Shown here piece after piece: positions 63,201 to 64,000 of a stretch of DNA of 64,000 nt (position 1 is its first letter; every line of letters starts with the position of its first letter). The stretch is from Podarcis gaigeae. Its lineage: Eukaryota. The DNA lies in assembly GCA_964106915.2 (NCBI GenBank), contig OZ066915.1, one strand, 5' to 3'. Made by a program: the position numbers.

Positions 63201-64000
63201 CCTGGTTGCCCTTTTATGCCTTTTTCCCCAGTCTGACCAATGCTTCCCGGATTTCCCTGTAGTGTTTGAAAGAGGTGCAATGGAAGACTTTAAGTTTTCA
63301 AGCAGGGCATGTGCTAAATCTTAGCCGTCATTCCCATGCACTGCTTACCTTTGGCCCTGGTAGCCCATCCATGCCTCTCTCCCCTGTTGGGCCAATGCTT
63401 CCCCGGTTTCCCTGTCAATTTTGAAAGAGGGAGAATGGAAAAACTTGGTTTCTTAGCAGGCTATGTGCTTAGGATCTTGTTATCCTTTCCCATGTAATAC
63501 CCACCTTTGGCCCTGGTAGACCACTCATGCCTCTTTTTCCCACAGGGCCAATGTTTCCTGGTTCTCCCTGTATTATTTGAAAGAGGTGCAATAGGAAACT
63601 CTAAGTTTCTAAGCATGGATTGTGCTAATCTTAGCATTCTTTCCCATGCACTGCTTACCTTTGCCCCTGGTAGACCATCTATGCCTCTCTCCCCTACTGG
63701 GCCAGGACTTCCTGGTTCTCCCTATAGTGTTTTAAAAAAGGTGCAATGGAAAACTCTGTTTCTTAACAAGACATGTGCTAGTCTTTTATCAACTCCCACG
63801 TGCTCCTTACCATTGGCCCTGGTAGACCATCTATGCCTCTCTCCCCTACTGGGCCAGGACTTCCTGGTTCTCCCTGTAGTGTTTAAAAGAGGTGCAATGG
63901 ACAACTCTCAGTTGCTCACCAAGGAAAGTGCTAGCCTTTTTATCCTTTCTCATGCACTGCTTACCTTTGGCCCTGGTAGACCATCTATGCCTCTCTCCCC

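What the first reader, a model, noticed from the sequence alone, without database searches (positions are those of the whole stretch)
63659..64000. Array exons are far more conserved than their introns, and the only exon indel is exactly one Gly-X-Y triplet
Seen: exons 63659-63721 and 63811-63873 differ at only 2 of 63 nt, while adjacent introns 63722-63810 and 63874-63964 differ at roughly 20 positions, including indels. Intron lengths vary freely (87, 89, 90, 91, 92, 93), whereas exons stay at 63 nt except one of 54 nt (61863-61916, a 9-nt loss). Inference: purifying selection and/or exon-restricted gene conversion, so the copies are translated rather than neutral minisatellite DNA. The near-identical copies at the window edge may mark a younger part of the array.
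Basis: partly seen in the sequence, partly recalled or inferred. Interest (0 to 1): 0.75.

Follow-up and report, generated by a model that had tools for sequence, protein, structure and literature searches.

The report
Collagen XXIII exon array in lizard
At least 13 near-copies of a 63-base collagen exon, each with its own short intron, lie in a lizard's collagen XXIII gene, and only the glycine codons, reading frame and splice sites are kept, which is the ordinary mark of translated collagen exons.

Summary
The local numbers are right. Exons 63659-63721 and 63811-63873 differ at 2 of 63 nt, and the introns beside them differ at 21 of 91 aligned columns. The title does not hold for the whole array.

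- **Array-wide diversity:** exons 0.213, introns 0.259. The gap comes entirely from the first two bases of the Gly codons. Without them exon diversity is 0.271, equal to the introns (p 0.69).
- **Evidence for translation:** 1 of 166 Gly GG cells is changed against 170 of 1079 intron cells. Gly dN/dS is 0.03 and X+Y dN/dS is 0.91. 12 of 12 acceptors are AG and 13 of 13 donors are GT. The one exon indel is 9 nt.
- **Edge trio:** a short exon-centred identity tract (global p 0.0035) sits between introns as diverged as elsewhere. This points to conversion, not younger units.
- **Gene:** the minus-strand orthologue of COL23A1 in a lacertid-like lizard.

This is not human DNA. No transcript evidence was available.

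The parts
61527..64000 (-). Tandem array of about 154-nt units, each a 63-nt collagen exon plus an 87-93-nt intron. It is cut by the window end at 64000, which is the upstream side of the gene.
   Evidence: TRF finds period 154 at 61550-61949 and 62862-64000. blastn of one unit finds copies only between 61527 and 64000.
63965..64000 (-). Exon U01. It is incomplete: 36 nt lie in the window.
   Evidence: GTAAG donor and an open Gly-X-Y frame. It differs at 1 of 36 nt from U02 and at 1 of 36 nt from U03.
63811..63873 (-). Exon U02, 63 nt, 7 Gly-X-Y triplets. The last codon is Met where 10 of 12 units have Lys.
63659..63721 (-). Exon U03, 63 nt.
63505..63567 (-). Exon U04, 63 nt. Its donor is GTGGG, the only one of 13 that is not GTAAG.
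63349..63411 (-). Exon U05, 63 nt.
63194..63256 (-). Exon U06, 63 nt, the most diverged exon (p 0.24-0.37 to the other complete exons).
63044..63106 (-). Exon U07, 63 nt.
62890..62952 (-). Exon U08, 63 nt.
62398..62889 (-). Long intron of 492 nt. Its two ends are homologous to the array introns and the middle is an insertion with no other copy in the window.
62335..62397 (-). Exon U09, 63 nt. It is the nearest relative of the edge trio among the other exons (7 of 63 nt differ).
62183..62245 (-). Exon U10, 63 nt, with Cys at the fifth Gly position. It is the only one of 83 Gly positions in the complete exons that is not Gly.
61917..62182 (-). Long intron of 266 nt with an insertion that is unique in the window.
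61863..61916 (-). Exon U11, 54 nt. It has a 9-nt deletion, which is one Gly-X-Y period.
61710..61772 (-). Exon U12, 63 nt.
61556..61618 (-). Exon U13, 63 nt, the last unit of the array. Only about 29 nt of the following intron still resemble the array introns.
63817..63875 (-). Identity tract in U02: exon positions 1-57 plus the AG of the acceptor. It is identical to 63665-63723.
   Evidence: Difference positions; run test (33 polymorphic sites, global p 0.0035).
63665..63723 (-). Identity tract in U03, the partner of 63817-63875.
40349..58104 (-). Downstream part of the same collagen gene. Gly-X-Y exons with ag/gt borders lie at 58060-58104, 56956-56991, 55308-55361, 54527-54571, 53652-53741, 52377-52466, 51145-51180 (runs on into non-collagenous codons), 49821-49865, 48670-48696, 47116-47142, 46058-46129, 45899-45952, 44865-44891, 44009-44062, 43158-43244 and 40349-40387.
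   Evidence: Gly-X-Y scan with flanks. The last four exons are collinear with the named COL23A1 fragment P0027: 8 of 9, 16 of 18, 27 of 29 and 13 of 13 residues identical.
20775..28333 (-). Neighbouring gene: exons of 5-phosphohydroxy-L-lysine phospho-lyase (PHYKPL/AGXT2L2). The bounds are approximate, taken from open-frame pieces.
   Evidence: Pfam Aminotran_3, E 6.1e-15. The best named hits are lacertid lizard PHYKPL.
12195..12847 (+). Neighbouring gene: two RRM-domain exons of an hnRNP-type protein.
   Evidence: Pfam RRM_1, E 1.6e-15 and 1.8e-05. The name hnRNP A/B is recalled, not tested.

Best explanation
The stretch is the downstream end of a tandem array of exon-plus-intron units inside the collagen XXIII (COL23A1) orthologue of a lacertid-like lizard, read on the minus strand.

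Each unit carries a symmetric phase-0 exon of seven Gly-X-Y triplets with its own acceptor and donor. Any number of units can therefore be spliced in a row and still encode an unbroken triple helix. The window holds 261 such residues, about 75 nm of rod at the textbook rise per residue (recalled).

The array most likely grew by unequal exchange between 154-nt units (inferred). Since then selection has kept only what a triple helix and splicing need: Gly at every third residue, indels in multiples of 9 nt, and the splice signals (shown). X and Y residues and the intron interiors drift at about the same rate (shown).

The three near-identical exons at the window edge are not young units. A short exon-centred stretch of about 59 identical nt, or at most about 85 nt with 2 differences, has been copied between neighbouring units whose introns are old. 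That is a gene-conversion-like event. The pattern is shown; the mechanism is inferred.
For: CODING SIGNATURE
- 12 of 12 acceptors are AG and 13 of 13 donors are GT, 12 of them GTAAG. No exon has an in-frame stop.
- 82 of 83 Gly positions are Gly.
- Gly codon positions 1-2 are changed in 1 of 166 cells, against 97 of 581 other exon cells and 170 of 1079 intron cells.
- dN/dS is 0.03 for Gly, 0.91 for X+Y and 0.60 overall.
- The single exon indel is 9 nt, while intron lengths are 87-93, 266 and 492 nt.
- Intron ends are more conserved than the interior: diversity 0.144 in the first 6 columns, 0.202 in the last 20, 0.287 in the core.
- A single exon scores as the Pfam Collagen repeat at E 0.0017.

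GENE IDENTITY
- The four C-terminal exons are collinear with the named COL23A1 fragment P0027.
- The conserved C-terminal peptide of this collagen family is present.
- The neighbouring gene is PHYKPL. PMC4678570 places AGXT2L2 (the same gene, by recall) on chromosome 5 in the paralogous region it draws around human COL23A1 (passages read).

CONVERSION
- The run test gives global p 0.0035.
- There are 0 synonymous differences over 17.2 sites, where the array mean pS of 0.283 predicts about 4.9. The chance of seeing 0 is about 0.003 (my arithmetic).
- The flanking introns differ at 21 of 91 and 27 of 91 columns.
Against: - No transcript, cDNA or peptide evidence was available.
- No named protein containing the unit was found. 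The word-indexed search of proteins of 201-2000 residues gave 0 hits among 6247 candidates. The exhaustive representative search gave 8 weak hits, none at or below 1e-10. One of the 8 is named, and it matched mostly the translated intron.
- A single 21-residue exon is below Pfam's curated cut-off (18.5 against 27.2 bits).
- One exon has Cys for Gly and one has a weak donor.
- X+Y dN/dS near 1 is also what a decaying array would show.
- That the array and the downstream COL23A1 exons belong to one transcript rests only on same strand, same phase and a 3.4-kb spacing.
- The conversion claim rests on one event, at the window edge, with U01 incomplete.
- Misassembly of a tandem repeat could not be checked.
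Confidence: 0.7

Rival explanations
1. The array is a non-coding minisatellite or a string of dead pseudo-exons lying inside a COL23A1 intron. It is never or rarely spliced in, and its collagen look is inherited from one exon that was amplified.
For: X+Y dN/dS is 0.91. Exon diversity outside the Gly GG positions equals intron diversity. One exon has Gly replaced by Cys and one has a GTGGG donor. No named protein with the unit was found.
Against: With units about 21-26% apart, neutral decay should have changed about 16% of GG cells, yet 1 of 166 is changed. All 25 splice dinucleotides are intact. The only exon indel is 9 nt, while introns carry many small indels that are not multiples of three.
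Confidence: 0.1
2. The edge exons are near-identical because that end of the array is young, made of recently duplicated whole units.
For: U01, U02 and U03 differ at 1-2 nt.
Against: Their introns differ by 0.20, 0.22 and 0.27, as much as the array mean of 0.26. The nearest relatives of those introns are other units, not each other, in 4 of 4 nearest-neighbour look-ups for U02 and U03, apart from one tie-level 0.20 match. The identity run stops at or near the exon borders.
Confidence: 0.07
3. The near-identity of the edge exons is an assembly artefact. Reads from a tandem repeat were collapsed or chimerically joined, so one exon sequence was written into several units.
For: Tandem arrays of 154-nt units are hard to assemble from short reads. 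The event lies at the window edge and only one such tract is seen.
Against: Each of the three exons has its own private change and its own distinct introns. A simple collapse would not produce that. There are no N runs in the window.
Confidence: 0.08
4. The array belongs to a separate collagen-like gene lying upstream of COL23A1 on the same strand, not to COL23A1 itself.
For: A link to the downstream exons is not shown by any transcript. The mammalian fragments seen (P0027, P0028) contain no such unit, but they cover only the C-terminal part.
Against: The array ends in a normal donor 3.4 kb upstream of the next phase-0 Gly-X-Y exon, 58060-58104. No stop, terminal exon or other Gly-X-Y run lies between them.
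Confidence: 0.1

Closest known systems
[quoted passage not shown]
   Same: The C-terminal exons and the conserved C-terminal peptide match a named COL23A1 fragment. The neighbour is PHYKPL/AGXT2L2, as in the human region drawn in PMC4678570 (passages read). The gene has short Gly-X-Y exons with non-collagenous interruptions.
   Different: PMC4678570 describes MACITs as having three collagenous domains (passage read). It makes no mention of a tandem exon array: 'repeat' occurs once in the text, in a freeze-thaw protocol. Here at least 13 tandem 21-residue units precede the C-terminal region. The transmembrane and furin-site parts lie outside the window.
The classical model that collagen genes grew by tandem amplification of a short Gly-X-Y exon unit (54-bp unit of fibrillar collagens; recalled). 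PMC4450265 traces COL-domain growth from an 18-residue primordial collagen (search listing and start of abstract only).
   Same: Phase-0 exons begin with a whole Gly codon and end with a whole Y codon. The unit length is a multiple of 9 nt. Growth is by duplication of exon plus intron.
   Different: In fibrillar collagens the introns no longer resemble each other (recalled). Here the introns are still alignable at about 74% identity, so the amplification is visible directly. The unit is 63 nt, not 54.
Concerted evolution and gene conversion in tandem gene or exon arrays (general knowledge, recalled)
   Same: The units have mosaic relationships. Exon and intron distance matrices are not significantly correlated (Mantel r 0.35, p 0.11; r -0.19, p 0.73). 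Two runs of shared sites are significant.
   Different: Homogenisation is weak. Mean divergence between units is 21-26%, and only 2 of 55 pairs show a tract significant at the array level.
Coding minisatellites such as mucin or involucrin repeats (recalled)
   Same: Tandem, length-variable, protein-coding repeats with loose sequence constraint.
   Different: Those repeats lie inside single exons. Here every repeat is a separate exon with its own intron and splice sites.

Membership tests
Collagen triple-helix repeat (Pfam PF01391) | Gly at every third residue without interruption | tested here: met
   82 of 83 Gly positions in the 12 complete exons are Gly; the exception is Cys in 62183-62245. 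All exons begin with a Gly codon and end with a Y codon.
Collagen triple-helix repeat (Pfam PF01391) | Score at or above the Pfam curated cut-off | tested here: inconclusive
   Exon by exon: 18.5 bits (E 0.0017) for a 21-residue array exon and 20.5-24.5 bits for four downstream exons, against a cut-off of 27.2. Each exon is shorter than the 60-position model.
COL23A1 / MACIT collagens | Conserved C-terminal peptide | tested here: met
   Exon 40349-40387 is identical at 13 of 13 residues to the end of the named COL23A1 fragment P0027. Three preceding exons match collinearly at 8 of 9, 16 of 18 and 27 of 29 residues. PMC4678570 names the C-terminal peptide as a conserved MACIT feature (passage read).
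COL23A1 / MACIT collagens | Genomic neighbourhood of COL23A1 (AGXT2L2/PHYKPL nearby) | tested here: met
   The class-III aminotransferase exon 24617-24883 finds named PHYKPL proteins. AGXT2L2 is cited on human chromosome 5 in the COL23A1 paralogous region (PMC4678570, passage read). That AGXT2L2 and PHYKPL are the same gene, and that they are immediately adjacent in human, is recalled.
COL23A1 / MACIT collagens | Type II transmembrane domain and furin cleavage site near the N-terminus | not testable with these tools
   The 5' part of the gene lies beyond coordinate 64000, outside the window. No eukaryotic genome collection was open.
COL23A1 / MACIT collagens | Three collagenous domains separated by non-collagenous stretches | tested here: inconclusive
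   Interruptions are visible downstream, for example after 51145-51180 and in 44009-44062. Domain count cannot be set without the 5' part and a transcript. The array would make one domain much longer than in the mammalian scheme.
Translated exon array (as opposed to a neutral minisatellite) | Constraint specific to coding features: Gly codons, frame, splice sites | tested here: met
   with the numbers given in the explanation.
Translated exon array (as opposed to a neutral minisatellite) | Exons present in mature mRNA or protein | not testable with these tools
   No transcript data were available. Protein searches found no named protein with the unit.
Gene conversion between array units | A run of shared variable sites longer than permutation of sites allows, flanked by diverged sequence | tested here: met
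   U02-U03: 33 sites, pairwise p 0.001, global p 0.0035. U11-U12: 27 sites inside the intron, global p 0.036. The other 53 of 55 pairs have global p above 0.38 (the 12 best pairs were printed).

The most novel reading that the evidence does not exclude
Lacertid, or more widely squamate, collagen XXIII has gained a long and still-evolving rod segment built from a tandem array of 21-residue exons. This would make its ectodomain much longer than the mammalian one. Because every unit is a symmetric exon, both copy number (by unequal exchange) and exon choice (by skipping) could vary between species, individuals or tissues. That would make it a natural length-tunable transmembrane collagen. The exon-centred identity tract would then be a sign of homogenisation acting on the coding part.
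Probability: 0.3. Interest if true: 0.55.

Novelty: new member of a known kind. Interest (0 to 1): 0.35.

Why it matters
Collagen genes are thought to have grown by amplifying a short exon unit, but in most of them the introns have long lost any trace of it. Here the introns are still alignable, so the process can be measured directly. The measurement shows that a triple-helix exon is constrained almost only at its Gly codons, its 9-nt register and its splice signals.

One striking exon pair is an outlier made by a short copying event, not the rule for the array.

If the array is expressed, a lizard transmembrane collagen would have a much longer extracellular rod than its mammalian counterpart. 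That would be of interest for collagen XXIII biology, though it is not a new kind of system.

Tried and rejected
- **Contiguous genomic open frame with two array exons and the in-frame 90-nt intron between them (61656-61997):** 0 hits among 6247 candidates in proteins of 201-2000 residues. In the exhaustive representative library it gave 8 weak hits. Only one is named, a turbot Ig-like protein that matched mainly the translated intron. The seven unnamed Logan/ENA hits were not fetched, so whether they are related arrays stayed unchecked.
- **ESM Atlas on one exon:** only generic collagen IV fragment clusters, score 0.95 with 53 of 256 shared features, so uninformative.
- **Rfam on the whole window:** 0 matches.
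- **Two-unit higher-order repeat (TRF period 306):** rejected. Even-numbered introns are not similar to each other (0.23-0.39). The period reflects odd-numbered introns being less diverged, which remains unexplained.
- **Distance against separation in the array:** no relation (Spearman -0.07 and -0.10).
- **Dispersed copies of the unit, or of the two intron insertions, elsewhere in the window:** none.
- **Literature:**
  - 'COL23A1' + 'exon duplication': 0 papers.
  - 'collagen' + 'tandem exon duplication' + 'Gly-X-Y': 0 papers.
  - 'tandemly repeated exons' + 'collagen': 0 papers.
  - 'COL23A1' + 'lizard': 4 papers, none relevant by title.
- **Not used or not available:**
  - Genome contigs was not used because it holds only bacteria and archaea.
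  - No eukaryotic genome or transcript collection was available, so orthologous arrays stayed unchecked.
  - The additional files of PMC4678570, which may show lizard collagen XXIII sequences, could not be seen.

Full report
WHAT IS THERE

The window has no N. Tandem Repeats Finder reports a 154-nt period at 61550-61949 (2.7 copies, 84% matches, score 562) and at 62862-64000 (7.4 copies, 73% matches, score 1027). It also reports a 306-nt period over 62871-64000 (score 1139).

On the minus strand each unit holds an open run of Gly-X-Y codons. I numbered the units in gene order, from U01 (63965-64000, cut by the window end) to U13 (61556-61618).
- All 12 visible acceptors are AG.
- All 13 donors are GT. 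Twelve are GTAAG and U04 is GTGGG.
- Every exon starts with a whole Gly codon and ends with a whole codon.
- 11 of 12 complete exons are 63 nt. U11 (61863-61916) is 54 nt.
- Intron lengths in gene order are 91, 89, 91, 93, 92, 87, 91, 492, 89, 266, 90, 91.
- The two long introns have array-like ends and a middle insertion with no other copy in the window. The unit itself occurs nowhere in the window outside 61527-64000.

CHECK OF THE OBSERVATION

The numbers given for the quoted coordinates are right.
- U03 (63659-63721) and U02 (63811-63873) differ at 2 of 63 nt.
- The introns before them differ at 21 of 91 aligned columns and the introns after them at 27 of 91.
- The only exon indel is the 9-nt loss in U11, which removes one Gly-X-Y period.

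The title claims this for the array as a whole, and that does not hold.
- Over 12 complete exons and 12 introns, mean per-column diversity is 0.213 in exons and 0.259 in introns. The intron core, without the first 6 and last 20 columns, is 0.287.
- The one-sided Mann-Whitney p is 0.079 against all intron columns and 0.020 against the core.
- Without the edge units the values are 0.227 against 0.259 (p 0.148; 0.049 against the core).
- Exons are closer than the following intron in 44 of 55 pairs.
- The whole difference sits in the first two bases of the Gly codons, with diversity 0.024 and 0.000. The other 49 exon columns have diversity 0.271, the same as the introns (two-sided p 0.69).
- The ratio of exon distance (without the Gly GG positions) to mean flanking-intron distance has a median of 0.97. 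It is below 0.5 in 1 of 55 pairs, namely U02-U03 at 0.17.

ARE THE COPIES TRANSLATED?

The pattern of constraint says yes, but the constraint is narrow.
- Gly codon positions 1-2 depart from the commonest base in 1 of 166 cells. Other exon positions depart in 97 of 581 cells and introns in 170 of 1079. The binomial probability of at most 1 at the intron rate is 1.4e-11. Exon non-Gly against intron gives Fisher p 0.62. The units share ancestry, so these probabilities are too small. The contrast is still large.
- Summed over 66 exon pairs, Nei-Gojobori dN/dS is 0.03 for Gly codons, 0.55 for X, 1.60 for Y, 0.91 for X+Y and 0.60 overall.
- 82 of 83 Gly positions are Gly. The exception is Cys in U10, 62183-62245.
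- Some X and Y positions keep a preferred residue: Pro in 10 of 12 units at residue 3, Leu in 11 of 12 at residue 17, Pro in 11 of 12 at residue 18, Lys in 10 of 12 at residue 21.
- The intron alignment gives 21 indel rows, 6 of them multiples of three, with the two large insertions split into several rows by the aligner. The exons carry one indel, of 9 nt.
- Intron ends are more conserved than intron interiors: 0.144 and 0.202 against 0.287.
- A single array exon is recognised by the Pfam Collagen model at E 0.0017 but below the curated cut-off (18.5 against 27.2 bits). This is expected for 21 residues against a 60-position model.

Exon and intron divergence outside those positions is statistically equal.

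THE EDGE TRIO

U01, U02 and U03 differ from each other at 1-2 nt. Their introns differ by 0.20, 0.22 and 0.27, no less than the array mean of 0.26.
- The two U02-U03 differences are both non-synonymous, with none over 17.2 synonymous sites. At the array mean pS of 0.283 about 4.9 would be expected, and the chance of none is about 0.003 (my arithmetic).
- I ran a Sawyer-type test on 11 intron-exon-intron units: 245 columns, 175 of them polymorphic, 2000 permutations of column order. U02-U03 gives a run of 33 concordant polymorphic sites spanning columns 94-148, where the exon is columns 92-154. The pairwise p is 0.001 and the global p is 0.0035.
- The exact identity covers exon positions 1-57 plus the acceptor AG, 59 nt in all.
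- The last 28 columns of the upstream intron add only 2 differences. That region is conserved in all units anyway.
- The second-best run, U11-U12 with 27 sites and global p 0.036, lies wholly within an intron. The other pairs are not significant at the array level.
- Exon and intron distance matrices are not significantly correlated when the Gly GG positions are left out: Mantel r 0.35 (p 0.11) with the following intron and r -0.19 (p 0.73) with the preceding one. With all exon columns, Spearman is 0.46 (p 0.0005) over non-independent pairs.

My reading is a short conversion-like copying event centred on the exon, in units that are themselves old. It is not a younger part of the array, and it is not evidence that conversion is restricted to exons as a rule.

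WHICH GENE AND WHICH ORGANISM?

Downstream on the same strand lie 16 further Gly-X-Y exons with ag/gt borders, from 58060-58104 to 40349-40387.

I searched exon by exon, or with contiguous genomic open frames.
- The 41-residue open frame that starts at exon 43158-43244 found 28 proteins among 103 candidates. Two of them are named: a ground-squirrel 'Collagen type XXIII alpha 1 chain' fragment (P0027) and a grey-whale hypothetical protein (P0028). I fetched only these two.
- Four window exons match P0027 in order: 8 of 9, 16 of 18, 27 of 29 and 13 of 13 residues. The last is the family's conserved C-terminal peptide.
- The neighbouring minus-strand gene has a class-III aminotransferase exon (Pfam E 6.1e-15). 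Its best named relatives are PHYKPL of lacertid lizards:
  - Podarcis raffonei, 99% over 84% of the query
  - Lacerta agilis, 93% over 91%
  - Zootoca vivipara, 91% over 91%
  Mammals in the 120 listed rows reach at most 84% (1193 proteins at E up to 1e-10 among 1260 candidates).
- The MACIT paper PMC4678570 places AGXT2L2 on chromosome 5 in the paralogous region around human COL23A1 (passages read). That AGXT2L2 is PHYKPL, and that the genes are adjacent in human, is recalled.
- Two RRM exons lie further on, on the plus strand.

I conclude that the window is from a lacertid-like lizard and do not take it for human. The collagen gene is the COL23A1 orthologue. That the array is part of the same transcript is inferred from strand, phase and the 3.4-kb distance to the next exon. 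It is not shown.

IS THE ARRAY KNOWN?
- No named protein with the unit was found. There were 0 hits among 6247 candidates of 201-2000 residues. Proteins longer than 2000 residues were not searched there.
- The exhaustive search of 1.84 billion representatives gave 8 hits at E up to 0.001 and none at 1e-10. One of the 8 is named, a turbot Ig-like protein whose match falls mostly on the translated intron. The seven unnamed hits were not fetched.
- The ESM Atlas returned only generic collagen clusters.
- The literature searches found 0 papers. One search found 4 papers, none relevant by title.
- PMC4678570 describes MACITs as having three collagenous domains and lists an Anolis collagen XXIII accession. 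In the passages I read it says nothing about an exon array. Its additional files could not be seen.

HOW IT MOST LIKELY WORKS

Each unit adds seven triplets to a triple helix. The window alone holds 261 residues of array-encoded Gly-X-Y, about 75 nm at the textbook rise per residue (recalled). Because every exon is symmetric and in phase 0, any gain, loss or skipping of units keeps the frame. This is what lets unequal exchange expand such an array (inferred). The selection seen here is exactly what a triple helix and the spliceosome require, and nothing more.

VERDICT

This is a real, translated-looking tandem exon array in a lizard collagen XXIII gene. It is an ordinary signature of coding collagen exons plus one short conversion-like event. 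Interest is moderate to low unless expression shows a greatly lengthened or length-variable collagen XXIII.

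Noticed in passing
62183-62245 (minus strand): Array exon U10 has Cys at a Gly position. It is the only break of the Gly-X-Y register in the 12 complete exons. It could be a tolerated interruption or a skipped exon.
   Followed up: partly
62398-62889 and 61917-62182: Two array introns are enlarged to 492 and 266 nt by insertions that have no other copy in the window. Their nature was not determined.
   Followed up: partly
53652-53741 and 52377-52466 (minus strand): Two 90-nt collagen exons of the same gene are an older duplicate pair, 76% identical over 123 nt. 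Similarity fades just outside the exons, so here the exons have outlived their introns.
   Followed up: partly
48670-48696 and 47116-47142; 44386-44458 and 46014-46086 (minus strand): Two 27-nt exons encode the same nine residues. A 73-nt partial copy (92%) of the end of exon 46058-46129 plus its intron start has AT where the donor GT should be, so it looks like a dead exon copy.
   Followed up: partly
61619-63964, array introns: Odd-numbered introns (after U03, U05, U07, U09, U11) are 0.14-0.22 apart from each other. Even-numbered introns are 0.23-0.39 apart from each other and from everything else. This explains the 306-nt period reported by TRF without a true two-unit repeat. The cause is unexplained.
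   Followed up: partly
597-1133 (plus strand); about 2065-2523, 8504-8959, 42295-42725: A 179-codon open frame resembles the tail of a retroelement protein, by recall only, and has no Pfam hit. Three places share similar open-frame pieces, suggesting a dispersed SINE-like repeat.
   Followed up: no
8000-11000: This is a G+C-rich stretch (0.56 in 8001-10000) with GGC/GAG-type short tandem repeats at 10287-10345, just upstream of the RRM-protein exons. It is probably that gene's CpG-island promoter and first exon.
   Followed up: no
40349-40387 (minus strand): The exon that encodes the conserved C-terminal peptide ends in a GT donor directly after the last conserved Lys, with no stop codon. The stop would then lie in a further downstream exon. 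The whale model P0028 reads on past the same point.
   Followed up: no
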